Shown here: one piece after another, positions 158 to 43,477 of the stretch | Position numbering within the stretch: the first letter of the stretch is position 1 | Layout of the letters: each line of letters starts with the position of its first letter | Origin: Candidatus Eiseniibacteriota bacterium | GTDB lineage: Bacteria > Eisenbacteria > RBG-16-71-46 | Length of the DNA stretch: 64,000 bases | Reading direction: 5' to 3' | Assembly (NCBI GenBank): GCA_013140805.1 | Contig: JABFRW010000033.1 | Location: 245 to 64,244 of the forward strand | The notes under the pieces: model-generated | What the model was told of the DNA's origin: nothing | What the model saw: the letters and a program-made list of their open reading frames with translations, nothing else | Databases searched by the model: none | Made by a program: the position numbers and the translations under genes

Positions 158-2194
158 TCAGCGCGCAATCGCGAGACGGCGCGTCGTAATTCGCTCGGGA
201 GTTGAATACCGAACGAAGTAGATACCGGCCGGAACCCGGTCGTGTTTCGCCCGCCCGTCCCAATTCAACTGATAGCTCCCGCGTTCGTGGCGACCCTCGG
301 CGAGGTTCGCGATCTCGCGACCGGCGAGGTCGAGAATGCTCAGTCTCACCTCGGTCGGAGCAGTGAGGGCGAATTGAATCGTCACGGGTCCGCGGGACGG
401 ATTAGGCGATACGGCGGTCAGGCCGTCCTGAAGTCGCGGATGAGCTTCGACCACGATCGGCCCGAACGCCATGCGTTCGCCGTCAGGCGAGAGAGCTTCG
501 AGGCGATACCACCACGGGTTCCCGGCCTCGATCGAGTGATCCTCCGCCACACTCACGCCGGCCTCGCGACGAATCGCGGCGGTGACCGGTGTCCACGGAC
601 CGGTCGCATTCGACGCTCGGAAAAGCTCGACCTCTGAAAATGGCGAGGGGCCCGAGAACTCCCACGACACGCGAATGCCAGCTTCGATCGGCTCGGCGTC
701 GAAGCGCACGAGCATCGTCGCGGTGGGTGACTCCCCGATCGAAATCTTCCGGACGTACACATCGCCCTGGTCCGAGCGCGTGTCGACCCAACTCACGTAC
801 GCACTTCCCGGGCCCGCAGGTTCGAGGCGCGAGCCGCCCTGAAAGCCGGGCGCGGTGCACACGGCGAGTCGGTCCGAACCGCTGATTGGCCAGAGTGAGC
901 CGCCCGCATCGACTCGCTGTGCGAACAGATCGGTTTCTCCGGGCGTCAACGAGGAGTCGGACCACACCACCATGGCCCCGCCCGATCCATCCGTGACCGT
1001 GAGCGGCAGGTCGCCATTCGCGAGCGCAGCACCCACACGAACCCCGAGTGGATCCCAGCCCGGCGGAATCGTCGCGTCGGGGCGAATGCGCTGCACACGC
1101 ACATCCTCGTGCCCGGCGCCCGGAACGTAGACGTTCCATGCGGTCAGCACGCCGCCGAGTCCGTCGGCTGCCGACCATTGACCATGGAGCGAATTCCCAC
1201 TTGTCGAGTAGAGATTCCCGAGCGCCGGCCAACCGCTGGACGGAGTCCCCGTCGGACCAAGTCTCTGAACGAAACTCCCGGCCCGAGCATGCGGCTGATC
1301 GCTTCCGTCCCAAAGCACGAAGACGCCGCCCGATTCGTCTCCGACCATCCCGAACTCTGGATAGACGTCGAAGCCGCCGACGCCGATCCCGCTGGCCGGA
1401 ACGAGTGGATCAACCACACCAGCGGCAGTGACGTGCTGAAGAACTCGCAGGTACGTTTGGACGCTCAGCGACTGAGCCCGAGAGGCCGCCGCTGTACCGT
1501 CATCCGACCAACCCACCCACACGCCGCCGGAACCGTCGAGCGACAGCACGGGTTTGTCCTGCTCGTTGAATCCAGTCTTTGTCAGAACACCATCGGTGGG
1601 CCAGCCGGGATACGGTGAACCGTCGACTTGAAGTCGATGAACGCGCACGTGTCTCCAGCCGTCCCGAGCATCCGACCATGCGACGAAAACTCCGCCGGCA
1701 CCGTCCGCGAGAATCGTTGCACTCCAAATGGTGATCGGCTCGGGCGCCGGACGCAGCCCACCGGCCGGCCAATTGGAGTCGAGCTGGCCATTCGCGGTGA
1801 CGTGAGCGACGCGAAAGCCGCTGAAGGCGGGCCACAACACGAAGGCGCCGCCTGCTCCGTCCGACGCGATCGAGTGGTCGCGCCACAAGTAGAACAACGG
1901 CTGCGGCGAAACGCCGCCGTCCCCGACGCGGACGCCACTCGTAGGCCAGCCGGCTGCGAGGTTCCCTCCCGAATCGTAGCGAGTGACGTAGGTCGCGAAT
2001 TCCGTGTCGCTCAAGCTCACCCACGATACGAGCACGCCACCCGCGGGGTCGGCGCAGATCACCGTCGAGTACTGGAGACCGGCTCCGTCGCCGACTTTCG
2101 CGCCTTGCTCGGGCCAGGTCGCATGGGCGGCCGGGGCCATGACCGCGAGAGCCGACGCGATGCAGACGAGTCGGAATGCCAGTGGGATTCGCAT
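158..2194 (-). CDS. Secreted repeat protein with C-terminal FlgD-Ig/T9SS-type sorting domain (start moved to internal Met preceding the signal peptide MRIPLAFRLVCIASALAVMAPAAHA)
   Basis: Long ORF. ATG at 2194 opens a classic signal peptide. Internal ~50-aa repeats of type DG(A/S)GG..V.W.D.R.G. An FN3-like segment is followed by the C-terminal ...NPSRGPVTIQFAL...GIYFVRY... domain shared with 5 other proteins in the window. Confidence 0.7.
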   Translation of the reverse strand: MRIPLAFRLVCIASALAVMAPAAHATWPEQGAKVGDGAGLQYSTVICADPAGGVLVSWVSLSDTEFATYVTRYDSGGNLAAGWPTSGVRVGDGGVSPQPLFYLWRDHSIASDGAGGAFVLWPAFSGFRVAHVTANGQLDSNWPAGGLRPAPEPITIWSATILADGAGGVFVAWSDARDGWRHVRVHRLQVDGSPYPGWPTDGVLTKTGFNEQDKPVLSLDGSGGVWVGWSDDGTAAASRAQSLSVQTYLRVLQHVTAAGVVDPLVPASGIGVGGFDVYPEFGMVGDESGGVFVLWDGSDQPHARAGSFVQRLGPTGTPSSGWPALGNLYSTSGNSLHGQWSAADGLGGVLTAWNVYVPGAGHEDVRVQRIRPDATIPPGWDPLGVRVGAALANGDLPLTVTDGSGGAMVVWSDSSLTPGETDLFAQRVDAGGSLWPISGSDRLAVCTAPGFQGGSRLEPAGPGSAYVSWVDTRSDQGDVYVRKISIGESPTATMLVRFDAEPIEAGIRVSWEFSGPSPFSEVELFRASNATGPWTPVTAAIRREAGVSVAEDHSIEAGNPWWYRLEALSPDGERMAFGPIVVEAHPRLQDGLTAVSPNPSRGPVTIQFALTAPTEVRLSILDLAGREIANLAEGRHERGSYQLNWDGRAKHDRVPAGIYFVRYSTPERITTRRLAIAR

Positions 2195-2826: not shown

Positions 2827-5241
2827 CTAAGGCATCAACACGACGCGCTTCGAAAACGCGCGATCGCCGACGATCGTCCGAACGAAGTACACACCTGCTC
2901 CGACTCGGCTTCCATCCGAAGCATCCCCGCGCCACGTCAGAGGCCAGCGCCCCGCTGCCATCGTCTCGCGCGCAAGTTCACGCACCAGTCGCCCGCTCGC
3001 GTCGTAGATCGCGGCATCCACGCGCGCCGCACTCGGCAGTTCCACTCGCATCGCGATGCCTGCACGTGAAGGATTCCCGGACGTGATCGCGAACGCGACT
3101 TCGCGCGGCAAGTCATCGCCCACCGCGGTCGTCCCCGCCGGCAGCACCAGCGCTGTCCCACTTTCGTTGCCATGGATGTCCACTGCCGACACGCGGTACC
3201 AGAACGGGCTCGCGCCCGCATCGATGTACCAGCTCTGCGTGGGCGATGCGATGCGATTCGCGATCGACGGCACGAAGCTGGGCGAAGCGCCGCGATACAG
3301 GCGATAGTTCGCGAGGTCCGCTTCGCCGTTCGCGTTCCACAACAGCGTAGAGCCGCCGCTCGACCAGGTTCCCGCGAAGCCGCTCGGAATGGTTGGCGGG
3401 AGGTTGTCCACCGAGTAGGCCGAGTCCTGGTTCGAGAACCAGTACACGTCAGGCACCATCGGGCCCGGCGCGTTGAAGTAGTCCACCGCTTCCACGAGTA
3501 GCTGTGTGCGCGGGTTCGATCCCGCGATCGAATCGCTCTCGGTGTCCACGGTCATGCTGTAGCCCGCGAAGTGCTGGGCCGCGACACCGCCCGCGTACTC
3601 CCAGTAGGTCGCGTTCACGCCCGTACCGATCTCGCGCAACAGACTCGCGCGGCCTGCTCGCTTGGCCGCCAGCGCGATGTTGGGCGGTACCTGCCGCCAC
3701 ACCTGGTACCCGCGCACCAGCGGATCCACCGAGTTCTCGAGCGGGCTCGCGTTCCAGCTCACCCGGACCTGTCCGCCCTGATCGTTCGGCACATCGCGTG
3801 CGTTCACGATGCGAGGCTCGGACTGCCCGATCTGTCCGAACTGATCGATGCGCTGGGCGCTGATCGTGTAGGTCGGCGAGTTCGTCACGTCGAACCAGCT
3901 CGCGAACATGCCGCTCTGCCCGGTCGGCGCCACCACCGCCGAGTTCACTGCGCCCGGCTTCGCGCACACCATGTTGCCGGTGGCGTTCCAGCCCGAGGGG
4001 CGTGTGCCGTTGGCCTTGAGTCGCATCGCCTTCACGGTGGCTCCAGCGCCACCCGAGAACTCGTGCCACAGGACGATCGCGCCCCCCTGGCCGTCCGGCG
4101 TCGCCGTCGCGGGAATCTGGTAGAACGCGAACGTGGCCACGATCGCAAGTCCTGACGACGGCCATTGAGGATCGATCATGCCGTTGAGCAGCAGGTGTGA
4201 GCCGTACACGTCGCCCTGGACGTCGGTGCGCAGGTCGTACCAGAACACGAACGCACCACCCGCTCCGTCCGACACCACGATGGCGGAGTTCTGCTCGTCG
4301 GGGGCGGCTCCCGATAGATTGCGAATCACGAATCCGCCCGAGGGATAGACGTGCGTGCTGTTGATCTCGCTCGACGCGCCCTGCACCTGAGTCCACACCG
4401 CGATCACGCCGCCGACGCCGTCGGGAATCGCGTTGAGCTGCTGAATCAGGCCAGCGGCGAAGAGCTCGGCGACGTCGCCCCCCGCAGCAAACTGAGCAAC
4501 GCCCGCTGAGTTCAACCGCTGTTTGTAGAGATTGTCGTTCGCCACGGTCAGGTCGCGCCACAGAATCCACATGCCGCCCACGCCGTCAGTGGCCGCGACG
4601 ACCTGGTCCTGAATCGACGTGTTTGAGGCGACCGCCAGGCCGCTCGCACCCCACTGCAGCACCCCTGAAGCATTGAGTCGCTGCGCGTAGGCGTCGGTGT
4701 CGCCGATCGAGAAGTTGTAGGTCCAGGCGAACATCGCACCGCCGGTGCCGTCCGGGACCAGGCCGAAGCGCGTGGACTGCGAGTTTGGCTGCGTGGCAAC
4801 GCGCACGCCGCCCGCCGTCCACAGTGCGGTGCCGGCGGAGTTGAGTCGCTGCGCAAAGATCGCGTCGACGCCGGCGACATTTTGCGCCCACGCGACGATG
4901 ACGCCGCCGGTGCCGTCCGCGACGAGCGTTCCATTGAACTGAGAGGGCGAGCCGGTGGCGATCGGCAGGCCGTTCGCGTTCCACAGCAGCGTGCCGTTCG
5001 CATCGATCCGCTGCGCGTAGACATCGCTGTTCCCCGACCGCTCGTCTGACCACACCAGGTAGTAGCCGCCGGCGCCGTCGGCGATCGAAGCGGTCGTGAA
5101 TCGCTGGCTCGCTGCCGAATAAATCGTGAGCGGTGATGCCGGATCGTTCGGCCACGCGGCGAGACACACGCCTGGAGTCAGCAGCGCCGCGAGGGCGCTT
5201 GCGAGAACGGTGAGGCGAAACCACGCCGACATCCGGGACAT
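2827..5241 (-). CDS. Secreted repeat protein (paralog of 158-2194 and 41018-43477) with DVPNDQGG module, FN3-like module and C-terminal sorting domain
   Basis: AGGAGG RBS 7 nt upstream of ATG 5241. Signal peptide MSRMSAWFRLTVLASALAALLTPGVCLA. About 8 tandem ~50-aa repeats (DGAGG..VAW......DIYAQR...G...W). C-terminus ...AGVYFVRTIV.... Confidence 0.8.
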   Translation of the reverse strand: MSRMSAWFRLTVLASALAALLTPGVCLAAWPNDPASPLTIYSAASQRFTTASIADGAGGYYLVWSDERSGNSDVYAQRIDANGTLLWNANGLPIATGSPSQFNGTLVADGTGGVIVAWAQNVAGVDAIFAQRLNSAGTALWTAGGVRVATQPNSQSTRFGLVPDGTGGAMFAWTYNFSIGDTDAYAQRLNASGVLQWGASGLAVASNTSIQDQVVAATDGVGGMWILWRDLTVANDNLYKQRLNSAGVAQFAAGGDVAELFAAGLIQQLNAIPDGVGGVIAVWTQVQGASSEINSTHVYPSGGFVIRNLSGAAPDEQNSAIVVSDGAGGAFVFWYDLRTDVQGDVYGSHLLLNGMIDPQWPSSGLAIVATFAFYQIPATATPDGQGGAIVLWHEFSGGAGATVKAMRLKANGTRPSGWNATGNMVCAKPGAVNSAVVAPTGQSGMFASWFDVTNSPTYTISAQRIDQFGQIGQSEPRIVNARDVPNDQGGQVRVSWNASPLENSVDPLVRGYQVWRQVPPNIALAAKRAGRASLLREIGTGVNATYWEYAGGVAAQHFAGYSMTVDTESDSIAGSNPRTQLLVEAVDYFNAPGPMVPDVYWFSNQDSAYSVDNLPPTIPSGFAGTWSSGGSTLLWNANGEADLANYRLYRGASPSFVPSIANRIASPTQSWYIDAGASPFWYRVSAVDIHGNESGTALVLPAGTTAVGDDLPREVAFAITSGNPSRAGIAMRVELPSAARVDAAIYDASGRLVRELARETMAAGRWPLTWRGDASDGSRVGAGVYFVRTIVGDRAFSKRVVLMP

Positions 5242-8221: not shown

Positions 8222-8327
8222 CGCGCCGCATCGTCGTGCAGGCATTCCACCCGCGTCAATCGCGGATGGCGCCTGTGCTAAGGTGCCCGCTTTCTCGCGA
8301 ATGATTCCCACTCTCGGAGCCCTCTCG

Positions 8328-9695: not shown

Positions 9696-9712
9696 AGCCG
9701 AGCCGCGACCCC

Positions 9713-11341: not shown

Positions 11342-11389
11342 GCCGAATCGGCGCGAATCCCGCACGCTTGCGGCGGCATCTGAGCGCAC

Positions 11390-11893: not shown

Positions 11894-11915
11894 TCCTCGA
11901 CTACCGTCCGGCCGC

Positions 11916-15660: not shown

Positions 15661-17007
15661 ATGAAAGTCCGCCCGGCGAAACGCCCGTTCCGTGTGGTGG
15701 CCGGCTTGTGTGCGGTAGCCGCCGCGTGTCTCGCAGGCTCGCTCGCTGCTCCGCCTGTGGTCCGCGAGTCGCACGCGTCCTACTTCGTGCCGACGCCGCC
15801 CTGGCGCCCCAAGGAAGCGACGCTGGTACGGCGCCAGGGACTCTTCCACCTCTACTACACGCGCGGCATTCCGACCGCCCCGTTCGATTCGACCTGGACC
15901 GAACTCGGGCATGCGGTCTCGGGCGACCTCTACAACTGGGTCGAATGGGCGCCGGAGATCCCGCCGCGCGCGACCGAGTGGGACAACCACCAGATCTGGG
16001 CGCCTCACATCGTCGAGACCGACACGCTCTACTACATGTTCTACACCGGGATCACGCACTCGCCGCCGGACTGGATCCATCACCAGCGCATCGGCGTTGC
16101 GACCTCGCCCGACCTCGTCAACTGGACGCGACTCCCCGAGCCGGTGCTGGAGTGCCTCGATGTCCCGTGGACTTACTGCATCCCGTCGATGGAGGGTGCC
16201 GGCGACTTTCGCGATCCCTACGTGATGCCCGATCCGGATTCGGCCGGACACTGGATCATGTACTACACCGCGCGTCATCGCGACGCCCCGGGCGAGCTGC
16301 TGATCGGCGCCGCGCGCTCGACCGGCGACCTCACGCAGTGGACCGGCGCGGGACCGTTGTTCAATACCGCACAGCGCTACACGCTGAGCAGCGTCACGGA
16401 GACGCCCGACGTGTTCGAGCACCAGGGACGGTGGTTCCTGCTCTACACCACCTGGAACAAGCACCCGATCGGCATCCAGACCGCATTGCATCCGCTCGCG
16501 GACTCGTCGGGCTGGAGCGCTCAGCAGTTCCTGCACGAACAGGTGCCGTTCAACAACACCGATCCAAGCTTCGGTCCCGAGCACCTCGTCGTCGACGGGC
16601 ACGAGCTCTACTACCACGCCAATTCGGCGGTCGACGGGATCGAGTTCCTCGAGTTCGTGTGGGAGGACTCGCTGAACTTCGACCTGATCGACCCGTGGAT
16701 CGTCGACACCGCGCTCTCGGTACCGCAGCCGCCGCTCGCCGGCGTGCGCCTGGTTCCGGTGCTGGGCGCGGGCGGCGTGCGGCTGGTCGTGGACACGCCG
16801 CGCTCGCTCGAGGCGCGGTTGTGGATCGCGGACGTCTCGGGACGACGCATTCAGCTGCTGCACGAGGGGCGATTGCCGCGCGGTCGCAGCGAACTGCCGT
16901 GGGATGGCCGCGCGTCGGCCGGGTTCGTGATGCCGTCGGGCGTCTACTTCGCGGTGCTCGAGACCGCCGGCGAACGCCGCGTCGCGCGCTTCGCGCGACT
17001 GCGGTAG
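15661..17007 (+). CDS. Secreted five-bladed beta-propeller glycoside-hydrolase-like protein (GH32/43/68 clan-like) with C-terminal sorting domain
   Basis: Signal peptide MKVRPAKRPFRVVAGLCAVAAACLAGSLA. Motifs HLYYT, FRDPYV (RDP), LEC (EC) and HWIMYYT are typical of clan GH-J/F propellers. C-terminus ...SGVYFAVLETAG... is the shared sorting domain. Family assignment is tentative. Confidence 0.55.
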   Translation: MKVRPAKRPFRVVAGLCAVAAACLAGSLAAPPVVRESHASYFVPTPPWRPKEATLVRRQGLFHLYYTRGIPTAPFDSTWTELGHAVSGDLYNWVEWAPEIPPRATEWDNHQIWAPHIVETDTLYYMFYTGITHSPPDWIHHQRIGVATSPDLVNWTRLPEPVLECLDVPWTYCIPSMEGAGDFRDPYVMPDPDSAGHWIMYYTARHRDAPGELLIGAARSTGDLTQWTGAGPLFNTAQRYTLSSVTETPDVFEHQGRWFLLYTTWNKHPIGIQTALHPLADSSGWSAQQFLHEQVPFNNTDPSFGPEHLVVDGHELYYHANSAVDGIEFLEFVWEDSLNFDLIDPWIVDTALSVPQPPLAGVRLVPVLGAGGVRLVVDTPRSLEARLWIADVSGRRIQLLHEGRLPRGRSELPWDGRASAGFVMPSGVYFAVLETAGERRVARFARLR

Positions 17008-22752: not shown

Positions 22753-22754
22753 TC

Positions 22755-26531: not shown

Positions 26532-29057
26532 CTACTGAATCAACACCAACCTGCGCGCCCGAACCTGGCCGAGCGTCTCGAGCCGGTAGAAGTACACCCC
26601 GGTTGCCGCGAGCGCTCCGGCGCCATCGCGGCCATCCCAACGCACTTCGTGAGCGCCGGCGTCACGCGCGCCGCGGACCAGCGAGCGCACCAGGCGACCG
26701 CGCACGTCGTAGATCGCGAGCCCGACGGTCGCGCGTGAAGGCAGCTCGAAGCGCAGTGTTGCGCCCGCATGCGCCGGATTCGGCATGCTCGTGTGCAACA
26801 CGACACCGCGCGAAGGCGCGGCGTCTTCCACGCCCGTCAGCAGCGGCGTGTAGGCGGTGAGCTTGACCTCGTCCAGGTTCCAGCCGCCGTAGTGCACGGT
26901 GGCGTTCGACCGCATGCCGAAGCGCACCTTCACGCTCGGATTGCCGTCGGCGATCGAGCCGACGTTGAAGGACTGCGCAGTCCAGTTCGCATCGATCAGC
27001 GGAGTCGTGGCCGGGTTCGACCACACCAGCGTGCCGTTCACCCACACCAGGGCCGCATCCCAGGTGCCGCCGTCGGACTTGTCGGTCGCGAGTTTTCGCA
27101 TGAAAGAGAGCTGCACGTCGGTCGCCTGCGAGCAATCGACCGCGGGCGATTCGAACCAGCTGTTGGTGAACGGTTCATAGCGGCCGAGATTGGCGCCGAG
27201 GCCGGTGATGTCGGTGCCCGCGATCATGGCTCCCGCGAACGCTGCAGTCGGATCCTCCGCGAGCCCGGCGGGTGCGGCAACCTGCCAGTCGTTGCCGGTG
27301 CCGCCGCTCGTCCAGCCGGTTGCTCCGGTCTCGAAGCCCTCCGCGAGCAGCGTGGTGCGTGACGAGACGAGGAACTGATGCACCACCGCGGGCGCGCCGT
27401 CGGGGGAGACTGCGAGCCGATTCGCGTCGTCCCTCGCACTCATCCAATAGCGCACAGTCGTGCCGCTTGGCTGGCCGGGGATGAACGCGTGGTAATTGCC
27501 CGGCGGCGAGATCGCGGTCATGACCTGCGCGACCTCGGGCCCGCCATTCGACCAGTGGAGCAGCAGCGAGTCCGGAACCAGCGCTCCGCTGGTGGTCAGA
27601 CTCGTCACGACTTCGTAGGGGCCGGTGGTGTTCGCGGTGTTCTCGAGCGGCGTGTGCGAGAACAGGAACACGCGTGGCACCGCGACGTGCGCGATGGTCG
27701 CGAGTCCGGCGCGCACCACGTCGCTCTGGATCGCGGTCTGGTTCCAGCCCGTGGTGTCGCAGGTCTGGTGATAGCACGGGAAGTCTTCGTATTCGTCCTC
27801 GATCGCGAGGAACGCCGGGAAGTTGTTGTCCTGGAACGGCACGTGGTCCGAGCCGAAGCTGAACAGCACCAGGTCGGCCGCCAGCGTGGTGTACTGCGCG
27901 CACGCGTCGTTCATGACGTTCATGAGCGGCAGCCAGGCGGATTCGCCCTCGATGTCGATCTTGTGGTTGAGATTTCGCCACCCGATCATGTCGAAGATCA
28001 CCACGCCCACGATCGAATCCCCGCGCGCGGCGGCGGCATCCGCGTAGTGCTCGGAGCCGAACAGGCCCTGCTCTTCGCCGGTGAACGCGATGAACTTGAT
28101 GGTGTTCTTGAACGAGTAGTTCTTGAGGATCTCCGCGATCATCAGCAGCCCCGCCGTACCGCTCGCGTTGTCGTTCGCTCCGGGTGCGTTGGTGCTCGCG
28201 ACCGGCGAGGTCGAGTCGAGATGAGCACCCAGGATCACCACCCGGTTCGGGGTCTCGTCGCCGGGCTTGGTTGCAACCACGTTGCGGGCACTCACCGACG
28301 AGAACGTGAACGGGTCGTAGGCGACGTCGGCGTAGCCCATCGCCTGGAAGCGTTCGAACACGTACTGCTCGGCCTTGTCGCACAGCGCGGTCGGCGTCGA
28401 GCGCGTCACGAACGAGGTCGGGACTCCGCCGACGTTGACCGAGAACTTCCCGGCCAGCTGCCCGATCATCTGGATCAGCGTCGGCCCCGACACCTGATCG
28501 ACCATCTGCTGGACGACCGGCGAGAAGCTGGTGACGTTCAGCGTCGGGCCACCCGGCGAACGCTCGACGGTGGTGATCTCGGTTCGCTTCCGAAGCGAGC
28601 GCTCGCGCAACACTTTTCGATGGTGCGGAAGCAGGCCTTCGCTCTCGGGCAGTGTGCCCTCCGAAGCGATCAGCCAGTCGTCTCCGCCGCGCCACAGCAC
28701 CTGCGCGCCGACTCGCGCGACCTGGGAGGCGTCGAGCGTGGCTTGCCCGTGACCTTCCGACCGCAGCAGCGTGATCATGCCGTGGGCCGGCAGAGCGATC
28801 GGGCCGTCGATGCGAAAGCCGGCCGCGCGCAGGCGCGCCAGCGACGCTTCGTTCGCAACGAGTACGGCATCGGGGAAGCGATCGAGCAGTTCGGCCCCGG
28901 TGGCCATCGCCTGTTCGAGCGTGCGGCCGTCGAGCCACGCCACGTGCAGGCGGGCGGGCCGCGGAGTCAGATCGCGGGCTGCCAGCGTCGGAGTGGTCAG
29001 GAGCGTCGCCGCGATGGCCGCGGCGAACAGGACGGAGAGGGCGGGGTGACGTGGCAT
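26532..29057 (-). CDS. Secreted M28 family aminopeptidase with large C-terminal extension and C-terminal sorting domain
   Basis: Signal peptide MPRHPALSVLFAAAIAATLLTTPTLAARD. M28 motifs ILGAHLDS, NDNASG and FIAFTGEEQGLFGSEHY are present. C-terminus ...TGVYFYRLETLG.... Confidence 0.8.
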   Translation of the reverse strand: MPRHPALSVLFAAAIAATLLTTPTLAARDLTPRPARLHVAWLDGRTLEQAMATGAELLDRFPDAVLVANEASLARLRAAGFRIDGPIALPAHGMITLLRSEGHGQATLDASQVARVGAQVLWRGGDDWLIASEGTLPESEGLLPHHRKVLRERSLRKRTEITTVERSPGGPTLNVTSFSPVVQQMVDQVSGPTLIQMIGQLAGKFSVNVGGVPTSFVTRSTPTALCDKAEQYVFERFQAMGYADVAYDPFTFSSVSARNVVATKPGDETPNRVVILGAHLDSTSPVASTNAPGANDNASGTAGLLMIAEILKNYSFKNTIKFIAFTGEEQGLFGSEHYADAAAARGDSIVGVVIFDMIGWRNLNHKIDIEGESAWLPLMNVMNDACAQYTTLAADLVLFSFGSDHVPFQDNNFPAFLAIEDEYEDFPCYHQTCDTTGWNQTAIQSDVVRAGLATIAHVAVPRVFLFSHTPLENTANTTGPYEVVTSLTTSGALVPDSLLLHWSNGGPEVAQVMTAISPPGNYHAFIPGQPSGTTVRYWMSARDDANRLAVSPDGAPAVVHQFLVSSRTTLLAEGFETGATGWTSGGTGNDWQVAAPAGLAEDPTAAFAGAMIAGTDITGLGANLGRYEPFTNSWFESPAVDCSQATDVQLSFMRKLATDKSDGGTWDAALVWVNGTLVWSNPATTPLIDANWTAQSFNVGSIADGNPSVKVRFGMRSNATVHYGGWNLDEVKLTAYTPLLTGVEDAAPSRGVVLHTSMPNPAHAGATLRFELPSRATVGLAIYDVRGRLVRSLVRGARDAGAHEVRWDGRDGAGALAATGVYFYRLETLGQVRARRLVLIQ

Positions 29058-31850: not shown

Positions 31851-33581
31851 ATGACCCCGATCCGACTTTCGCATGATGGGCTGAGCGTGCTTCGTGTTGC
31901 GCAACGCGCGCTCCTCGGATTCTCGATCGTCGGCAGCCTGATCTTCACGGCCGCACCCGGTTTCGCGGCCGGGCTACCGCTCGAGCGCCCCGACGATCCA
32001 CCGCTGCCGGCAGCCAAGGCTCCGCCGGGAGCTCGCAGTGCCGCGAACGTCAGCTTCGGGCGCTTCACGCACATTCAGGTCAACGTCAACGGCCTCGGCG
32101 CGAACATCCCCGGCGATGCGGCGAATGAGCCGTCGATCGCGGTCGATCCGAACGACCACAACCGCATGGCGATCGGGTGGCGGCAGTTCGACAACGTGGC
32201 TTCGAACTTTCGTCAGGCCGGCTTCGGATTCACCACCAATGGCGGACTCACCTGGACCGCCGGCAAGATCGAGCCCGGTGTGTTTCGGAGCGACCCGGTG
32301 CTTCACTCCGACGGCGCCGGCAATTTCTTCTACAACAGCCTGACCTCGACCTCGATCATCACCACGCAGCTGTTTCCGTCGACTGATGGCGGCGCGACGT
32401 GGGGTGCCTCGACGTTCGCGTTCGGCGGCGACAAACAGTGGATGACGATCGATCGCACCGGTGGACTGGGCCACGATCACATCTATCAGGCCTGGAGCAC
32501 CGCCGCGAATTCCTACGAACCCAACACCTTCAATCGATCCAACGATGACGGCGACACGTTCCAGTCGCCGAGCATCATTCCCGATTCGCCGGTGTGGGGA
32601 ACGCTCGACGTTGCGAGTGACGGCACGCTGTACGTGGTCGGCACCGAAGGACCTGGCGGACTGATCTTCGTCGCGCGCTCGACCGACGCGAAGAACGCGC
32701 TCGTGACGCCCACGTTCACGACCGTACCCGTCGACCTCGGTGGCTTCGTGCAGACCGGTGGGCCCAATCCGGCCGGACTGCTCGGCCAGCTGTGGGTCGC
32801 CGTCGACCGTTCGACCGGACCGCGCGCCGGCTGGATCTACGTGCTCGGATCGGTCCGGACCGAGAACGATCCGCTCGACGTGAACTTCATTCGCAGCACC
32901 GACGGCGGTCAGACCTGGAGCGTGCCGCTGCGGGTCAACGACGACCCGAGCGGCAATCGCGCATTCCAGTGGTTCGGGTCCATGTCGGTCTCACCGGAGG
33001 GCCGCATCGACGCGGTGTGGAATGACACGCGCGCTTCGGCGGACAGCACCAAGAGCGCGCTCTACTATTCGTATTCGACCGATGGCGGCTCGAGCTGGTC
33101 GGTGAACGAGCAGGCGAGCCCGATCTGGACCAGCACGGTCGGCTTTCCAAATCAGGCGAAAATCGGCGACTACTGCCACATGGTCTCGGACAGCGACGGC
33201 GCCGATCTCGCCTGGGCCGCCACCTTCAGCGGTGGCCAGGACGTCTACTACGTTCGCATTCCGAGTCTCGTGCCGGTCGCGGTCGCCGAGCCGCCGGGGC
33301 GTGGCGCGCGGCTGCACGCCGGCTCGCCGAATCCGTTCACCTCCGCGACCTCGATTCGTTTCGACGTGCCGCCGGCCGGCTCGCGCGTGAAGCTGGAGGT
33401 GTTCGATGCCGGCGGACATCGCGTCGCCACGCTGGTCGACGCGTTCGTGCCGGGAGGGACGCACCTCGCTCGCTGGGCAGGAGTCGACCGGTCGGGCCGC
33501 ACGATGAATGCGGGCGTGTACTTCGCTCGCTTCGAAGCCGACGGGCATCGGGAGTCTCGAAAGTTGATGTTGCTTCGATAG
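31851..33581 (+). CDS. Secreted BNR/Asp-box repeat protein (sialidase-like beta-propeller) with C-terminal sorting domain
   Basis: AGGAGG RBS. Four Asp-boxes (STDGGATW, SNDDGDTF, STDGGQTW, STDGGSSW). C-terminus ...AGVYFARFEADG.... Confidence 0.7.
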   Translation: MTPIRLSHDGLSVLRVAQRALLGFSIVGSLIFTAAPGFAAGLPLERPDDPPLPAAKAPPGARSAANVSFGRFTHIQVNVNGLGANIPGDAANEPSIAVDPNDHNRMAIGWRQFDNVASNFRQAGFGFTTNGGLTWTAGKIEPGVFRSDPVLHSDGAGNFFYNSLTSTSIITTQLFPSTDGGATWGASTFAFGGDKQWMTIDRTGGLGHDHIYQAWSTAANSYEPNTFNRSNDDGDTFQSPSIIPDSPVWGTLDVASDGTLYVVGTEGPGGLIFVARSTDAKNALVTPTFTTVPVDLGGFVQTGGPNPAGLLGQLWVAVDRSTGPRAGWIYVLGSVRTENDPLDVNFIRSTDGGQTWSVPLRVNDDPSGNRAFQWFGSMSVSPEGRIDAVWNDTRASADSTKSALYYSYSTDGGSSWSVNEQASPIWTSTVGFPNQAKIGDYCHMVSDSDGADLAWAATFSGGQDVYYVRIPSLVPVAVAEPPGRGARLHAGSPNPFTSATSIRFDVPPAGSRVKLEVFDAGGHRVATLVDAFVPGGTHLARWAGVDRSGRTMNAGVYFARFEADGHRESRKLMLLR

Positions 33582-38313: not shown

Positions 38314-40112
38314 TCTCCGATCGAAACCAGATGGTTGCTCTGCCGCGCGATCAGGCTCGTGATGACGTCACGCCTGGGCATGAACTCGGCATCGAGCGGG
38401 ACCGCCGCACCCGGGTGCGAGAGCCGTCGTTTGTCGAGCCCCTGCCACCACGACCACCACGATTGAAGCGCCGCGGTGCGAGCCGCCGGCTCGGCAAGAT
38501 AGTCGAACGGCGGCGACTTCGGAGCCGCCCCGATTGCCGACTCGCCGACCTCCGCACGTGCGCACAACTCGAGCAGCCCCCGATGGGCGAAGTGCCGCAC
38601 CGCGGGGTAGGGGTCCTCCATGGTCAGCAGCAGGAAGGGCACAGCCCACAGCCGCTGCGTGGGGTCCGAGGTGTACGAGCGGGCCTGCGCGAGTGCGTTC
38701 GCCGCCACCGCGCGCTGCACCACGTCGCCGCCGAACAACGAGCGGATGCTCTCTGCAGTCTCGAATGCGCGATCGCTCGGCTCGTCGTCGGGAGGCGGTG
38801 TACCGAACTGTCGCGCGGTCTCTCTCGCGGCCCAGATCGCGGTCCGATCGGTGTGGCACAACGTGCAGGCCTCCGGCATTTCGTTTCTCCACGCCCGCGC
38901 GGGTGCCGGGCTGGTGATGCGGTGGCTCGGGTGCACGGTCAGCAATCCGTAAGTGGTGGGCGGCATGTGGCAGGCGTAGCACTCGCTGCCCGAGCCCGCG
39001 GCCTCGTGCCCGGTGTGCTTCGACACGTTGCGACCGATCTCGGCGTGGCACTGCACGCAGCCGGCATTGCCGCGCATCGCCGGCTGGATCATGCCGCGCG
39101 GATCGCCGCCATGCATGTCGTGGCATGACATGCAGGTCAGGTCGCTCGAGCCGTGGCCCTCGGACGTCAGCAGTCCCTGGTACTCGTAGGCGGTGAGTCG
39201 CGGCGTCCCGTCGCTCCAGAATCGCTGGCTCAGATCGGTGCCGGCGAGTTCGGTGTGCGCGTCGATCGGCGTGGTGAAACGACTCAGGTCGTCGCCGGCC
39301 GTGTAGGGATCGCCGACCGTCATGAACTCGGCGATGCGCTCGCGCGGGTTCGGCAACCGCTGACCGTGGCAGTGGCCGCAGATCTGGATCTGCTGCATGC
39401 GCGGCAGCTCGCGCGGCGATCGGATCGTGGGGTCGCGGTCGCCGAGGTACAACAGGTAGCGCCGGAGCGGATCCCGGTTGCGACGAATGTGCAGATCCGC
39501 TGGACCGTGGCAGGCCTCGCACGCGATGCCCAGTTCGGCGACGCGAGCGTCGAAGGTATCGGTCTCGCGGTTCAGTCTCGGCTGAGCCTTCACGTTGTGG
39601 CAGAAGATGCAGTTGCTGTCCCAGTCGGTTCGATGGGCATTGAACGCGGTGGCGTCGGGATCGAGGAAGCCGCCGTTCAGATGGATCCACCGGCGTTCCT
39701 CGATGTTCCACGCGACCGGCAGGCGGACGTGCCGGTCGCCGACTCGCGTCACGTATTGCTGAATTCGACGCGAGCCGACCGTCATGGCGATCTCGTAGCG
39801 TTCCATGGTGTTCGCGGGAGACAACGTCTCGACGAAGAACCGCTCGCCGTCGCGCGTGAATCGCGACGTGACGCCCTGATAGGTGAGGCTCGCGTTCTCG
39901 AAATCGCCGACCACCGCAGTGGCGCGTGCAGGCTGAGTCATGGTGCGGTGGAAGGTGCGATGCCAGGTCTCGTAGCGCCCCGGGTGGCACATCACGCACT
40001 GCTCCGAGGTCGCATAGGCGACCTGCGGCAGTTCGACCGGCGTGCGCAGCTCGCCGGTGATTCGCGCGCCGATGGCGACCGTCGCTGCGAGGGCCGCGAG
40101 TGCGGCGATCAC
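38310..40112 (-). CDS. Octaheme c-type cytochrome (8 CxxCH) with C-terminal HEAT-like helical region; GTG start
   Basis: CVMCH, CIFCH, CEACH, CGHCH, CMSCH, CVQCH, CYACH and CTLCH. N-terminal signal/anchor IAALAALAATVAIGARITG. Confidence 0.8.
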   Translation of the reverse strand: MIAALAALAATVAIGARITGELRTPVELPQVAYATSEQCVMCHPGRYETWHRTFHRTMTQPARATAVVGDFENASLTYQGVTSRFTRDGERFFVETLSPANTMERYEIAMTVGSRRIQQYVTRVGDRHVRLPVAWNIEERRWIHLNGGFLDPDATAFNAHRTDWDSNCIFCHNVKAQPRLNRETDTFDARVAELGIACEACHGPADLHIRRNRDPLRRYLLYLGDRDPTIRSPRELPRMQQIQICGHCHGQRLPNPRERIAEFMTVGDPYTAGDDLSRFTTPIDAHTELAGTDLSQRFWSDGTPRLTAYEYQGLLTSEGHGSSDLTCMSCHDMHGGDPRGMIQPAMRGNAGCVQCHAEIGRNVSKHTGHEAAGSGSECYACHMPPTTYGLLTVHPSHRITSPAPARAWRNEMPEACTLCHTDRTAIWAARETARQFGTPPPDDEPSDRAFETAESIRSLFGGDVVQRAVAANALAQARSYTSDPTQRLWAVPFLLLTMEDPYPAVRHFAHRGLLELCARAEVGESAIGAAPKSPPFDYLAEPAARTAALQSWWSWWQGLDKRRLSHPGAAVPLDAEFMPRRDVITSLIARQSNHLVSIGE

Positions 40113-41017: not shown

Positions 41018-43477
41018 ATGCATTCGCGATATGACGTTTCCATTCGAAGCGCGCTTCTCACCGTACTGGCGTTCGCGCTCGCCGCCGGCCCCGCACAGGC
41101 GGCGTGGCTCCCCGACGCCTACGTGGGCGGCTTTGGGTTGTCCACCACGACGGCGACCCACGCCAATCCGACCGCCATCGCGGACGGCGCCGGCGGCGTC
41201 ATCGTGGTGTGGCAGGACCAGCGCAATGGCGTCGATTACGACATCTACGCGCAGCGCATCAACGCGCGGGGTGACGCGCTGTGGACGGCGAACGGCGTCG
41301 CGGTGTGCAGCGCGACCAATGCCCAGATCCTTCCGGTCGTCACCTCCGACGGTGCCGGTGGCGCCATCATCGCGTGGCAGGACTTTCGCAATGGCAGCCA
41401 CTACGACGTGTTCGCTCAGCGCGTGAACGCGAACGGCACGACCGCGTGGACCGCCAGCGGCATCAACGTGTGCAACGCCGCCGGGATTCAGGAAGCGCTC
41501 GCCATCATCAGCGACGACGCGGGTGGCGCGATTCTGACCTGGCAGGACCTTCGATCGGGCGGGACCAACGACATCTACGCGCTTCGCGTGGGGCCGACCG
41601 GCACCTCGCTGTGGACCGCGAATGGACGAGCGGTGAGTGTGGCGGGTGGGTCGCAGCTGGCGCCGAGGCTGGCGTCCGACGGCGCCAATGGCGCGATCAT
41701 CAGCTGGCACGACCTGCGCGGCGCCAACTACGACATCTACGCGCAGCGCGTTCCCGCCAGCGGCATCCCGCAGTGGACGGCCGATGGCGTGTCGGTGTGC
41801 AACGCCGCGGGCAATCAGACGTCTTCGATGATCGTCTCCGACTATGTCGGCGGCGCGGTCATCACCTGGGATGACGCGCGCTCCGGCACCTCGGACATCT
41901 ATGCGCAGCGCGTGGGTCCGAACGGGACGACGCTGTGGGTCGCCAACGGCTCGGCGGTCTGCACCGCGACCAATGCGCAGGTCACGCCTTCGATCGCCAC
42001 CGACGGCTCGGGCGGTGCGATCATCGCGTGGACCGACTGGCGCGCGGTGGCCACCAACTCGCAGGACATCTATGCCCAGCGAGTGAACGCGGCAGGATTC
42101 ACGGCATGGACTTCCAACGGCGTGCCGCTCCACACCACCACGACCGGGGCCCAGATCGCCCCGGTGTGCGTGAGCTCGGACGGCCTCGGCGGTGCGATCA
42201 TCTCGTGGGCCGACTCCCGCAGCATGCTCAACTACGACGCCTACGCCCAGCGCGTGGGGCCCAACGGCACCCGCTACTGGAATGACGAAGCGCTGGTGAC
42301 CGGCGCGGTGCTCGATCAGTACGTCATCGCACTCGTGAGCGACGGCGCGCAGGGCGCCTACGCCGTGAGCATCGACAATCGCAATGGCGTGTTCAAGACC
42401 TACGCGCAGAAGCTCAATGCCAGCAGTTCGCTGGGTGACTGCACGCCGCGCATCGTGTCGGTGCGCGACGTTCCGAATGATCAGGGCAGCTTCGTCAACC
42501 TGCGTTTCGATCGCAGCCGGCTGGACCTCCAGATCGACGATAATTTCCAGGTCGATTACACGATCTGGCGCCAGGTCCCGAACGCCGCGGCACTCGCAGC
42601 GCTCAAGGGCGGTGCTCGGCTGCTGGCGGCCGGCGAGCGTGCGGAACGGGGCGGCGCCGATCGCGGGCTGCTGCGAAAGACGGTGGAGATGAACGGCGTC
42701 ACCTATTACTGGGAGCAGTGGGACTGGGTGGATGGTCGCGGCATTCCGAGCTACGGAGCCGTGCTCGAGACCACTTCGGACTCGCTGCCGAGCTCGAATC
42801 CGCGCACGCTGTACATGGTCGAGGCGCAGTCGTACGAGGACGGCGACTACTGGTACTACCAGTCAGCTCCCGACAGCGGCTACTCGGTCGACAATCTGCC
42901 GCCGGGTGCTCCGGGCTCGTTCGCGGCTCAGTACGCCGCGGGCACCACGCAGCTGCACTGGGCGCCGGTCGTGGCACCCGACTTCGCGGGCTACCGGCTC
43001 TATCGCGGCGGCACGCTGACGTTCACTCCCGGCCCCGGCAATCTGGTCCAGGCGGTGTCGGACACCGGCTACACCGACGCTGCGGGCGGGCCGTACGTCT
43101 ACAAGCTCACCGCGGTCGATCTGCACGGCAACGAATCGCCGATCGCGACCGTTGCGCCGACCGGCATCGTCGACGCGCCGCCTGCGGGTCCGGCGGTGTT
43201 CTTCCTGGGCGCGCCGGTTCCGAATCCAGCGCGCGCGAACCTCGGGGTGACGCTGCGCTTCGGGCTTGCCCGGCCGGGCGAGGCGCGAGTGCGCGTGTTC
43301 GATGCACAGGGTCGACTGGTGCGGACACTCGAGAGCGGGCCCCATGCCGCGGGCGAGCATGTGGCGCGCTGGGATGGACGAAACGATCACCACGTACCGC
43401 TCGCTGCGGGGCTCTACTTCGTGAGGCTCGAGGCCGAATCGCGAGTCGCGACCACGCGCGTGACGCTGCTGTGGTGA
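41018..43477 (+). CDS. Secreted repeat protein (paralog of 158-2194 / 2827-5241): 8 x ~50-aa repeats, DVPNDQG module, FN3-like module, C-terminal sorting domain
   Basis: Signal peptide MHSRYDVSIRSALLTVLAFALAAGPAQA. Repeat consensus DGAGGAIIAWQD.R.G..DIYAQRV...G...WT.NGV.VC. C-terminus ...AGLYFVRLEAES.... Confidence 0.8.
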   Translation: MHSRYDVSIRSALLTVLAFALAAGPAQAAWLPDAYVGGFGLSTTTATHANPTAIADGAGGVIVVWQDQRNGVDYDIYAQRINARGDALWTANGVAVCSATNAQILPVVTSDGAGGAIIAWQDFRNGSHYDVFAQRVNANGTTAWTASGINVCNAAGIQEALAIISDDAGGAILTWQDLRSGGTNDIYALRVGPTGTSLWTANGRAVSVAGGSQLAPRLASDGANGAIISWHDLRGANYDIYAQRVPASGIPQWTADGVSVCNAAGNQTSSMIVSDYVGGAVITWDDARSGTSDIYAQRVGPNGTTLWVANGSAVCTATNAQVTPSIATDGSGGAIIAWTDWRAVATNSQDIYAQRVNAAGFTAWTSNGVPLHTTTTGAQIAPVCVSSDGLGGAIISWADSRSMLNYDAYAQRVGPNGTRYWNDEALVTGAVLDQYVIALVSDGAQGAYAVSIDNRNGVFKTYAQKLNASSSLGDCTPRIVSVRDVPNDQGSFVNLRFDRSRLDLQIDDNFQVDYTIWRQVPNAAALAALKGGARLLAAGERAERGGADRGLLRKTVEMNGVTYYWEQWDWVDGRGIPSYGAVLETTSDSLPSSNPRTLYMVEAQSYEDGDYWYYQSAPDSGYSVDNLPPGAPGSFAAQYAAGTTQLHWAPVVAPDFAGYRLYRGGTLTFTPGPGNLVQAVSDTGYTDAAGGPYVYKLTAVDLHGNESPIATVAPTGIVDAPPAGPAVFFLGAPVPNPARANLGVTLRFGLARPGEARVRVFDAQGRLVRTLESGPHAAGEHVARWDGRNDHHVPLAAGLYFVRLEAESRVATTRVTLLW

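What the first reader, a model, noticed from the sequence alone, without database searches (positions are those of the whole stretch)
158..43477. Six secreted proteins with different catalytic heads share one C-terminal beta-sandwich sorting domain
Six proteins share the domain: the repeat proteins at 158-2194, 2827-5241 and 41018-43477, the GH-like propeller at 15661-17007, the M28 peptidase at 26532-29057, and the BNR protein at 31851-33581. Each ends in a ~75-aa domain with the pattern NP....I.F.L.....V.L.I.D..GR.V..L.......G.H...WDG.......A.GVYF.RL. This is the signature of FlgD-Ig / Por_Secre_tail (T9SS type-A)-like cargo tags. Six in 64 kb implies a dedicated secretion and cell-surface attachment pathway and a heavily surface-displayed hydrolytic repertoire. 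The exact domain family and sorting machinery cannot be named from this window.
Basis: partly seen in the sequence, partly recalled or inferred. Interest (0 to 1): 0.6.

Follow-up and report, generated by a model that had tools for sequence, protein, structure and literature searches.

The report
T9SS-type C-terminal sorting tails, Eisenbacteria
Six secreted proteins in this stretch of an uncultured soil or sediment bacterium (Candidatus Eisenbacteria) end in the same small beta-sandwich tag that related bacteria use to export proteins through the type IX secretion system; this is a real but ordinary feature that public databases already annotate.

Summary
Exactly six ORFs in the window end in a homologous domain of about 90 aa, always at the extreme C-terminus. 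In a leave-one-out test each tail is recovered at E 4e-15 to 7e-26, and the best non-member scores 0.03 or worse. All six have Sec-type signal peptides. The domain is the FlgD_ig-like form of the T9SS type A C-terminal domain. PF13860 passes its cutoff in 4 of 6 and TIGR04183 in 3 of 6. The AF2 model (pLDDT 96.5) superposes best on the PorU CTD (TM 0.76). The D-x-x-G-R loop and the basic residue in the last strand are present.

The window comes from a Candidatus Eisenbacteria MAG. All six proteins are in GenBank and UniProt, and four already carry a "T9SS type A sorting domain" or "FlgD/Vpr Ig-like" name.

Two caveats apply. No T9SS machinery gene could be found or tested in this lineage with the available data. 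Also, only two heads are clear hydrolases (M28, GH32-like). Three share one uncharacterised 8-bladed propeller head, so "different catalytic heads" overstates the case.

A useful extra result concerns the wider family of more than 500,000 proteins. Internal copies lack the final K/R-x-V-L-L-R strand that every terminal copy has.

Verdict: ordinary, already annotated, low interest.

The parts
158..2194 (-). P1 (678 aa, GenBank NOT33191): signal peptide, propeller-repeat head, middle domain, C-terminal tail
   Evidence: TIGR04183 28.6 bits against cutoff 23; PF13860 31.8 bits against 27; PGAP name 'T9SS type A sorting domain-containing protein'
161..442 (-). Tail domain of P1 (last 94 aa)
   Evidence: leave-one-out E 1.9e-23
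2827..5241 (-). P2 (804 aa, NOT33193): signal peptide, 8-blade propeller head, two beta-sandwich domains, tail. Paralogue of P3 (35% identity over the full length)
   Evidence: PF13860 38.3 bits; TIGR04183 22.9 bits, just below cutoff 23; UniProt name 'FlgD/Vpr Ig-like domain-containing protein'
2830..3111 (-). Tail domain of P2
   Evidence: leave-one-out E 1.4e-19
15661..17007 (+). P4 (448 aa from this start; GenBank NOT33202 is called from a start 42 codons downstream, 406 aa): signal peptide, GH32/GH43-clan five-bladed propeller head, tail
   Evidence: (Glyco_hydro_32N 60.9 bits; PF13860 21.9 bits, below cutoff)
16729..17004 (+). Tail domain of P4. It is the most divergent copy and has no NP motif
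   Evidence: E 1e-30; leave-one-out E 3.9e-15; A2 profile E 1e-21
26532..29057 (-). P5 (841 aa, NOT33217): signal peptide, M28 aminopeptidase domain, about 320 aa of unassigned beta-rich region, tail
   Evidence: Peptidase_M28 129.7 bits; PF13860 44.7 bits; TIGR04183 27.3 bits
26535..26819 (-). Tail domain of P5, the copy modelled with AlphaFold2
   Evidence: pLDDT 96.5; PorU CTD TM 0.76; leave-one-out E 6.6e-26
31851..33581 (+). P6 (576 aa, NOT33220): signal peptide, BNR/sialidase-like propeller (sub-threshold), tail
   Evidence: PF13860 25.1 bits; BNR_2 23.0 bits against 31.4; TIGR04183 21.0 bits; UniProt name 'T9SS type A sorting domain-containing protein'
33291..33578 (+). Tail domain of P6
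   Evidence: leave-one-out E 3.3e-18
41018..43477 (+). P3 (819 aa, NOT33227): signal helix, 8-bladed propeller (about residues 40-470), two beta-sandwich domains (478-715), flexible linker (719-725), tail (728-819)
   Evidence: PF13860 45.2 bits; TIGR04183 31.6 bits; 100% identical to P0271; AF2 pLDDT 86
43190..43474 (+). Tail domain of P3
   Evidence: (leave-one-out E 3.8e-23)

Best explanation
The six genes encode Sec-exported proteins of a Candidatus Eisenbacteria bacterium. Each carries at its extreme C-terminus a seven-strand Ig-like beta-sandwich of the T9SS type A C-terminal-domain class, in the FlgD_ig-like sequence form that is common in FCB phyla outside the class Bacteroidia.

Proposed mechanism, with shown and inferred steps marked:
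(1) The N-terminal signal peptide takes the protein through Sec into the periplasm. The signal peptides are shown by rule-based reading; export itself is inferred.
(2) The head and the tail fold, and the tail is joined to the head by a flexible linker. This is shown in the AF2 model of P3.
(3) The folded tail docks in an SprA/Sov-type outer-membrane translocon together with a PorV-type carrier. The shape of the sandwich and the basic residue in its last strand matter for this step. This is inferred by homology to the Flavobacterium and Porphyromonas systems.
(4) The cargo leaves the cell. It is then either released or has the tail removed by a PorU-type sortase and is attached to the cell surface. 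This step is inferred, and release versus attachment cannot be decided from sequence.

The cargo here consists of an M28 aminopeptidase, a GH32-like glycosidase-fold protein, a BNR-like propeller and three paralogous 8-bladed propeller proteins of unknown function.
For: Homology of the six tails.

Curated models: TIGR04183 is above its cutoff in P1, P3 and P5 and within 2 bits of it in P2 and P6. PF13860 is above its gathering score in P1, P2, P3 and P5. The tails also hit the CTD portion of the PorU, PorZ and T9SS-dependent protease models.

Fold: the AF2 model has pLDDT 96.5 and seven strands. Foldseek gives the best superposition on the PorU CTD (TM 0.76, rmsd 3.0 A) and also hits the PorZ, RgpB, NucA-in-translocon and mirolase CTDs.

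Functional landmarks described in PMC11285876 and PMC10994853 are present. The D-x-x-G-R loop lies between strands 3 and 4, with the Gly invariant in 84 of 84 family members. A basic residue sits six positions from the end (K 47, R 28 of 83).

Terminal position: 6 of 6 in the window, 84 of 84 in alignment A2, and 57 of 64 within 3 residues of the stop in 663 kb of related metagenome loci, with the other 7 truncated or near-terminal. In the wider family, all 19 terminal copies contain the last-strand motif, against 1% of 1,018 internal copies.

Signal peptides are present in all six.

Lineage: the window is from Eisenbacteria, a sister lineage of FCB-superphylum phyla. T9SS and its CTDs are reported to be restricted to the FCB superphylum.

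Distribution: the tail type hits only 6 of 72,556 plasmids, all from Rhodothermus, Salinibacter, Hymenobacter or Chondrinema. There are 8 tails in 130 kb of Eisenbacteria DNA and none in 1.19 Mb of other phyla.

Public names: PGAP and UniProt already name P1, P3 and P6 'T9SS type A sorting domain-containing protein'.
Against: No T9SS machinery gene (SprA, PorV, PorU, GldK/L/M/N, PorP, PorT) was seen in the window. None was seen in about 130 kb of Eisenbacteria loci or in about 700 kb of related metagenome loci. A whole-genome check was not possible.

No paper in the library links Eisenbacteria with T9SS.

Pfam Por_Secre_tail (PF18962) is below its gathering score in all six, and TIGR04183 passes in only three.

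By sequence, the core of the tail is closer to flagellar FlgD (E 6.6e-10) than to the P. gingivalis CTDs (2e-4 or weaker).

The near-invariant Lys of Bacteroidota CTDs is Arg in four of the six tails.

The same Ig module is a common internal repeat in giant proteins, and it occurs in Gram-positive subtilases (Vpr, C5a peptidase). So the fold as such is not specific to secretion.

A few family members sit in MAGs labelled Dehalococcoidia or Acidobacteriota. These may be binning errors, or the tail may occur outside FCB.
Confidence: 0.75

Rival explanations
1. The tail is a general-purpose Ig-like (FlgD/Vpr-type) structural or adhesive module that happens to sit at the C-terminus, for example a spacer or a domain binding a polysaccharide or the cell surface. 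It would have no role as a secretion signal.
For: The family has 511,683 cluster representatives, and the top scorers carry up to 23 tandem internal copies. The core sequence is most similar to the FlgD Ig-like domain. The same fold appears as a structural domain in the C5a peptidase and Vpr subtilases of Gram-positive bacteria. Lauber et al. note that the conserved CTD motifs specify the fold rather than contacts with the translocon.
Against: A structural module would be expected at variable positions. Here every copy ends at the stop codon: 6 of 6 in the window, 84 of 84 in A2 and 57 of 64 in the metagenome loci. Terminal copies have a specific last strand (K/R-x-V-L-L-R/K) that 99% of internal copies lack. 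The tail is attached to unrelated heads through a flexible linker. Its distribution is restricted by lineage to FCB-type organisms.
Confidence: 0.12
2. The tail is a genuine C-terminal sorting signal, but in Eisenbacteria it is read by a machinery other than the canonical T9SS, either a divergent or a different outer-membrane export and anchoring system.
For: T9SS machinery was not demonstrated in this phylum, either here or in the literature searched. Sequence divergence from Bacteroidota CTDs is marked: PF18962 is below threshold, Arg replaces Lys, and there is a FlgD-like WDG motif. Tail density is unusually high, about one gene per 8-10 kb.
Against: The closest tails in cultured organisms are in Rhodothermus and Salinibacter (44% and 41% identity), which belong to the Rhodothermota where T9SS is reported. 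The best structural match is the CTD of PorU itself. T9SS is reported from several neighbouring FCB phyla. Failing to find about 13 genes in less than 5% of a genome is not informative.
Confidence: 0.1
3. The proteins are flagellar FlgD hook-cap paralogues, as the automatic JGI names of relatives suggest ('flagellar hook assembly protein FlgD').
For: PF13860 and the FlgD NCBIfam models match the tail. JGI gives this name to many short relatives.
Against: Only the Ig-like insert of FlgD matches (profile positions 17-79), at 16-31 bits against equivalog cutoffs of 230-383. None of the six has the FlgD N-terminal domain. Their heads are peptidase, glycosidase-fold or propeller domains, and they have Sec signal peptides, which flagellar export substrates lack. 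There are no flagellar genes in the window.
Confidence: 0.01

Closest known systems
T9SS type A C-terminal domain (TIGR04183 / Pfam PF18962 Por_Secre_tail), as in P. gingivalis RgpB, PorU and PorZ and F. johnsoniae NucA and RemZ
   Same: Both sit at the extreme C-terminus of Sec-exported proteins with unrelated heads. Both are 80-90 aa, seven-strand Ig-like sandwiches. Both have the D-x-x-G-R loop between strands 3 and 4, a G-x-Y motif in strand 6 and a basic residue in the last strand. The best structural match is the PorU CTD (TM 0.76). TIGR04183 is above cutoff in three of the six.
   Different: PF18962 is below its gathering score in all six. The strand 5/6 region carries the FlgD-like W-D-G-R-D..G motif, which Bacteroidia CTDs lack. 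The key Lys is Arg in four of the six. The host phylum (Eisenbacteria) has no described T9SS, and no machinery was found in the DNA available.
FlgD Ig-like domain (Pfam PF13860; InterPro 'FlgD/Vpr Ig-like'), as in the Salmonella, Pseudomonas and Xanthomonas FlgD hook cap
   Same: This is the best sequence match for the core (E 6.6e-10 to 7eh9). It shares the D-x-x-G-R-V and W-D-G...G-x-Y motifs and the same fold (Foldseek rank 1).
   Different: In FlgD the domain is an internal insert in a flagellar export substrate that has no Sec signal peptide. The match stops before the last strand. The six proteins here have no FlgD N-terminal domain and have unrelated heads.
T9SS type A tails of Rhodothermota (Rhodothermus marinus and Salinibacter ruber plasmid-encoded surface proteins)
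   Same: These are the closest tails in cultured organisms (44% and 41% identity over more than 90% of the tail). They are also at the extreme C-terminus, on a propeller (Reg_prop) protein and on BspA-like repeat proteins.
Other C-terminal sorting tags (T9SS type B CTD TIGR04131/PF13585; PEP-CTERM/exosortase; LPXTG/sortase)
   Same: The logic is the same: one short C-terminal module shared by many secreted proteins with unrelated heads and read by a dedicated machinery.
   Different: These tags have different folds and motifs. PEP-CTERM and LPXTG are a short motif plus a transmembrane helix, not a folded sandwich. PF13585 appears only as an overlapping weak hit in some relatives.

Membership tests
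T9SS type A CTD (TIGR04183 / PF18962) | Score at or above the curated cutoff of the family model | tested here: inconclusive
   TIGR04183 (cutoff 23): P1 28.6, P3 31.6 and P5 27.3 pass; P2 22.9 and P6 21.0 are just below; P4 has no hit. PF18962 (gathering score 27): all are below (24.0, none, 17.3, none, 14.0, 13.8).
T9SS type A CTD (TIGR04183 / PF18962) | Domain lies at the extreme C-terminus of the protein | tested here: met
   6 of 6 end 0-1 residues before the stop codon. 84 of 84 relatives end at the same alignment column. 57 of 64 copies in related metagenome loci end within 3 aa of the stop.
T9SS type A CTD (TIGR04183 / PF18962) | Protein has an N-terminal Sec signal peptide | tested here: met
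   All six have a basic n-region, a 12-residue hydrophobic core (mean Kyte-Doolittle 2.3-2.6) and AXA-like cleavage sites. This was a rule-based reading; SignalP was not run.
T9SS type A CTD (TIGR04183 / PF18962) | Compact seven-strand Ig-like beta-sandwich fold | tested here: met
   AF2 pLDDT 96.5, all-beta. Foldseek matches: PorU CTD TM 0.76 with rmsd 3.0 A, and the PorZ, RgpB, NucA (8glk_D) and mirolase CTDs.
T9SS type A CTD (TIGR04183 / PF18962) | Loop beta3-beta4 motif with the functionally essential Gly (F-D-M-N-G-R-R in RgpB; PMC11285876) | tested here: met
   [IVF]-[YFLA]-D-x-x-G-[RH] is present in all six. D and G are invariant in the six, and G is present in 84 of 84 members of A2. 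The motif lies between strands 29-36 and 42-51 of the model. FlgD shares this motif, so it does not discriminate between the two families.
T9SS type A CTD (TIGR04183 / PF18962) | Near-invariant Lys close to the C-terminus (PMC10994853, PMC11285876) | tested here: inconclusive
   A basic residue is present at the equivalent position in all six, but it is Lys in two (P2, P6) and Arg in four. In the 84-member family it is K 47 and R 28 of 83.
T9SS type A CTD (TIGR04183 / PF18962) | T9SS machinery (SprA/Sov, PorV, PorU, PorK/L/M/N and others) encoded in the same genome | not testable with these tools
   None is present in the 64-kb window or in about 0.8 Mb of related loci.
T9SS type A CTD (TIGR04183 / PF18962) | Host belongs to the FCB superphylum, to which T9SS and its CTDs are restricted | tested here: met
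   The window is from a Candidatus Eisenbacteria MAG. Eisenbacteria is treated as the sister lineage of the FCB phylum Joyebacterota. NCBI taxonomy itself leaves the phylum unplaced.
T9SS type A CTD (TIGR04183 / PF18962) | CTD-dependent export across the outer membrane, shown experimentally | not testable with these tools
   The organism is uncultured and no experimental data were found.
FlgD hook-cap protein (NF005176 and related models; Pfam PF03963 + PF13860) | PF13860 Ig-like domain above the gathering score | tested here: met
   P1 31.8, P2 38.3, P3 45.2 and P5 44.7 bits are at or above 27. P4 (21.9) and P6 (25.1) are below.
FlgD hook-cap protein (NF005176 and related models; Pfam PF03963 + PF13860) | Full-length FlgD architecture (FlgD N-terminal domain, equivalog score) and a flagellar context | tested here: not met
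   FlgD equivalog models score 16-31 bits against cutoffs of 230-383, and only over the Ig insert. There is no FlgD N-terminal domain, Sec signal peptides are present, and the window has no flagellar genes.

The most novel reading that the evidence does not exclude
Eisenbacteria and allied candidate phyla carry an exceptionally large secretome, about one tagged gene per 8-10 kb, which could mean a few hundred per genome. It is marked by a FlgD_ig-type terminal tail whose export machinery has never been described in these phyla. If closed genomes turn out to lack the canonical SprA, PorV and GldKLMN genes, the tail would define a new outer-membrane sorting pathway. The difference between terminal and internal copies (the last strand K/R-x-V-L-L-R/K) would then show how a generic Ig module became a secretion signal.
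Probability: 0.1. Interest if true: 0.6.

Novelty: already known. Interest (0 to 1): 0.17.

Why it matters
As it stands this is routine annotation. The tag belongs to a family with more than half a million members, and the six proteins are already deposited, four of them with a name that recognises the domain. Its practical value is modest in three ways. First, it marks P4 and P5, which are named only by their heads, as likely outer-membrane-exported cargo, and it argues for the longer start codon of P4. Second, it points to a protein- and glycan-scavenging extracellular lifestyle for a phylum with no cultured member. Third, the last-strand rule separating terminal from internal copies could make cargo prediction more accurate than the current Pfam and TIGRFAM models, which either miss these tails or mislabel them as FlgD. 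The only route to real significance would be finding that complete Eisenbacteria genomes lack a canonical T9SS.

Tried and rejected
1. Finding the source genome by exact match failed. Exact-product look-ups of P5, P3, the ATP synthase alpha subunit and P0271 found no record. An exact 49-mer in the species-representative genomes and an exact 60-mer in the JGI metagenomes gave no match. The organism was identified instead by synteny and by exact protein look-up.

2. The M32 carboxypeptidase was a poor choice for the only protein scan of the genome collection. Most hits were Chloroflexota, although they then served as a negative control.

3. The hunt for T9SS machinery led nowhere. Pfam and NCBIfam scans of all window ORFs found none. 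Two Reg_prop-plus-tail proteins in metagenome loci were tested as PorZ candidates. They score 95-103 bits against a cutoff of 260, so they are PorZ-like in architecture only. A regex for the GldK FGE-sulfatase motifs over the 2 Mb of DNA held gave one irrelevant Anaerolineae hit. The neighbourhoods of tail genes on long contigs showed nothing, and the large unclassified ORFs showed nothing. No seed sequences for the machinery could be obtained. T9GPred has no supplements held as text, and the Rhodothermus plasmid neighbourhood contains no machinery.

4. Literature searches linking Eisenbacteria with T9SS returned nothing, and Gong et al. 2022 does not mention secretion.

6. The full-length P3 fold search gave only generic propeller-plus-Ig matches. 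PDB sequence searches with the P3 and P6 heads gave nothing.

7. Three readings were rejected. The FlgD-paralogue reading fails on architecture. Recent duplication of the tails is ruled out by their 28-37% identity.
Full report
OBSERVATION

Their last 90 or so residues align with one another at 28-37% pairwise identity, with ten invariant positions. A profile of the six tails, searched against every six-frame ORF of the window, finds exactly these six (E 1e-30 to 2e-39); the next hit has E 0.05, so no copy was missed. That test is circular, so I repeated it leaving one tail out each time. The held-out tail is recovered at E 3.9e-15 (P4) to 6.6e-26 (P5), and the best non-member scores 0.027 or worse. 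The low identity rules out recent duplication. This is an old module attached to different proteins. In every case the domain ends 0-1 residues before the stop codon.

WHAT THE DOMAIN IS

Pfam FlgD_ig (PF13860) is above its gathering score in P1, P2, P3 and P5, and just below it in P6 and P4. Pfam Por_Secre_tail (PF18962) is below threshold in all six. NCBIfam TIGR04183 ("T9SS type A sorting domain") is above its cutoff of 23 bits in P1, P3 and P5, within 2 bits of it in P2 and P6, and absent in P4. The tails also hit the C-terminal-domain segment of the PorU, PorZ and T9SS-dependent protease models.

Against PDB sequences, the core of the tail (profile positions 17-79) is closest to the Ig-like insert of flagellar FlgD (E 6.6e-10). 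The P. gingivalis PorU and RgpB CTDs are weaker (2e-4, 3.5e-4). The mirolase CTD matches the last strand specifically (positions 68-89).

An AlphaFold2 model of the P5 tail, built on an 84-sequence alignment, is very confident (pLDDT 96.5) and is an all-beta sandwich. Foldseek against PDB ranks FlgD and the T9SS CTDs together. The best superposition is on the PorU CTD (TM 0.76, rmsd 3.0 A). The PorZ, RgpB and mirolase CTDs, and the NucA CTD bound in the F. johnsoniae translocon, also appear.

The two functional landmarks of T9SS CTDs described in the literature are both present. The first is the loop between strands 3 and 4 (F-D-M-N-G-R-R in RgpB, with an essential Gly; PMC11285876). It appears here as x-D-x-x-G-R/H-x, with the Gly invariant in 84 of 84 relatives. 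The second is a nearly invariant basic residue in the last strand (PMC10994853). It appears here as K or R six residues from the end, K in 47 and R in 28 of 83 relatives. All six proteins have Sec-type N-termini by rule-based reading.

TERMINAL VERSUS INTERNAL COPIES

An exhaustive profile search of 1.84 billion cluster representatives finds 511,683 proteins at E <= 1e-3. The top scorers carry up to 23 tandem internal copies.

The two kinds of copy differ, however. In the top 150 proteins, all 19 copies that end at the protein's C-terminus align through the last profile position. Only 1% of the 1,018 internal copies do so; the rest stop about ten positions earlier. The last strand, K/R-x-V-L-L-R/K, is therefore specific to terminal copies.

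In unbiased samples the domain is always terminal. All 84 sequences of alignment A2 end at the same column. In 663 kb of metagenome loci around P3 relatives, 57 of 64 copies end within 3 residues of the stop, and the other seven are cut by a contig end or are near-terminal. The heads in those loci are diverse: an S8 subtilase, Kelch, Reg_prop propellers, a lamin-tail plus C39-like protein, sortilin/BNR and invasin-like Ig. This is how a sorting signal behaves.

ORGANISM AND EXISTING ANNOTATION

Exact look-ups against the contig collections failed. A protein scan with the M32 carboxypeptidase returned mostly Chloroflexota, plus four Candidatus Eisenbacteria loci. Only the Eisenbacteria loci carry the tail, and the closed Eisenbacteria chromosome OY970342.1 shares gene order around M32 with the window.

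The search with the P3 head then returned a 100% identical GenBank protein. An exact look-up shows that all six proteins are deposited: NOT33191, NOT33193, NOT33202, NOT33217, NOT33220 and NOT33227, on a 65,924-bp contig of Candidatus Eisenbacteria (Eiseniibacteriota). P1 and P3 are named "T9SS type A sorting domain-containing protein" by PGAP. P6 has that name in UniProt. P2 is "FlgD/Vpr Ig-like domain-containing protein" in UniProt. P5 and P4 are named only by their heads. The finding therefore reproduces public automatic annotation for four of the six and extends it trivially to the other two.

LINK TO T9SS

T9SS and its CTDs are reported to be confined to the FCB superphylum. [quoted passage not shown] Eisenbacteria is treated as the sister of the FCB phylum Joyebacterota, although NCBI taxonomy leaves it unplaced.

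Two distribution tests fit a T9SS link. Among 72,556 plasmids, the P5 tail hits only six, all from Rhodothermus, Salinibacter, Hymenobacter or Chondrinema. The best is 44% identical and again sits at the extreme C-terminus. There are also 8 tails in 130 kb of Eisenbacteria DNA and none in 1.19 Mb from other phyla.

Against this, I could not show the machinery. There is none in the window. None appeared in the related loci I could screen. No paper connects Eisenbacteria with T9SS. Since I saw only a few per cent of any one genome, this absence carries little weight, but the key co-occurrence remains untested.

THE HEADS

P5 has a clear M28 aminopeptidase domain, and P4 has a GH32/GH43-clan propeller. 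The BNR assignment for P6 is below threshold, and its head has no sequence relative in PDB.

P2 and P3 are full-length paralogues (35% identity), and P1 shares their repeat region. The repeats are about 55 aa long, with a DGxGG...W.D.R...DIYAQR motif, and there are eight of them in P3. They have no Pfam model and no PDB sequence relative, yet at least 8,000 relatives exist in the protein database.

An AlphaFold2 model of P3 (pLDDT 86) shows a signal helix, an eight-bladed propeller, two beta-sandwich domains, a floppy linker and then the tail. Fold search gives only generic propeller-plus-Ig architectures. So there are four head types rather than six, and only two are recognisable hydrolases.

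MECHANISM AND CONFIDENCE

The most likely reading (confidence 0.75) is as follows. The proteins are exported by Sec and fold in the periplasm. The tail is recognised by an SprA/PorV-type translocon, the protein is exported across the outer membrane, and it is then either released or processed by a PorU-type sortase and attached to the surface. The tag, its terminal position, its fold, its motifs and the signal peptides are shown here. Every step that involves the machinery is inferred by homology.

The rivals are a non-signal Ig module (0.12), a signal read by a non-canonical machinery (0.10) and FlgD paralogues (0.01).

VERDICT

It is ordinary and already annotated in public databases. Interest is low (0.17). 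The only reading that would raise it is a demonstrated absence of canonical T9SS genes from complete Eisenbacteria genomes. I rate that at about 10%.

Noticed in passing
window 158-2194 (-), 2827-5241 (-), 41018-43477 (+): The heads of P1-P3 belong to a large uncharacterised family of 8-bladed beta-propellers with blades of about 55 aa and the motif DGxGG...W.D.R...DIYAQR. The AF2 model of P3 has pLDDT 86, and the function is unknown.
   Followed up: partly
wider family (P0121-P0270): In the tail family of more than 500,000 members, internal tandem copies in giant proteins stop about 10 profile positions before the end. Every C-terminal copy contains the last strand K/R-x-V-L-L-R/K. This is a simple rule that could separate sorting tails from structural Ig repeats.
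   Followed up: partly
window 15661-17007 (+): GenBank calls P4 (NOT33202) from a start 42 codons downstream (406 aa), which removes a canonical signal peptide that the 448-aa start provides. Read by eye, the GH32 RDP and E-C-P-like (E-T-P) motifs are present, but the WMNDPNG nucleophile box reads WRPKEAT, so the catalytic status is uncertain.
   Followed up: no
window 7887-15634, 26532-29057, 35208-37001, 48696-50600, 54171-55706, 58279-60354: The window is unusually rich in peptidases. It holds two M20, one S9 prolyl oligopeptidase-like, one M28, one S41-like with TPR, one M32 and one M48 peptidase, plus an OPT oligopeptide transporter. This suggests a protein- and peptide-scavenging lifestyle. 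Only the M28 carries the tail.
   Followed up: no
window 38310-40112 (-): A 600-aa multihaem c-type cytochrome (paired CXXCH, c554/NrfA-like hits) lies next to a 163-aa ORF with no family match.
   Followed up: no
window 44910-47714 (-) and 47872-48459 (+): A 934-aa TPR plus CHAT (caspase-like, clan CD) protein lies divergent from a DUF4394 protein.
   Followed up: no
window 61209-62909 (-); L004 2258-3799: A 566-aa protein with a hydrazine-synthase-alpha middle domain and a sub-threshold PD40 repeat match is conserved (39% identity) near M32 in the closed Eisenbacteria chromosome.
   Followed up: no
L137 (14 kb, 4 tail genes), L090 (21 kb, 4), L142, L143: Tail-bearing genes often lie in tandem clusters in related metagenome contigs. 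Overall density in 663 kb is one per 10.4 kb, which if typical would mean a few hundred cargo genes per 4-Mb genome.
   Followed up: partly
L136 4533-8258 (+), L133 3872-7048 (+): Two proteins combining Reg_prop propellers with the tail resemble PorZ in architecture and hit the PorZ model at E 1e-29 and 3e-27. They score far below its equivalog cutoff (103 and 95 bits against 260).
   Followed up: partly
window 18529-25324 (+): An F-type ATP synthase operon. The first gene (455 aa) combines a sub-threshold ATP-synt_I match (20.9 bits against 25.1) with a full subunit-a domain. Three small ORFs without family matches follow atpC (25305-26484), one of them with a short match (E 1e-4, about 35 residues) to the C-terminal end of OmpA-family models.
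   Followed up: no
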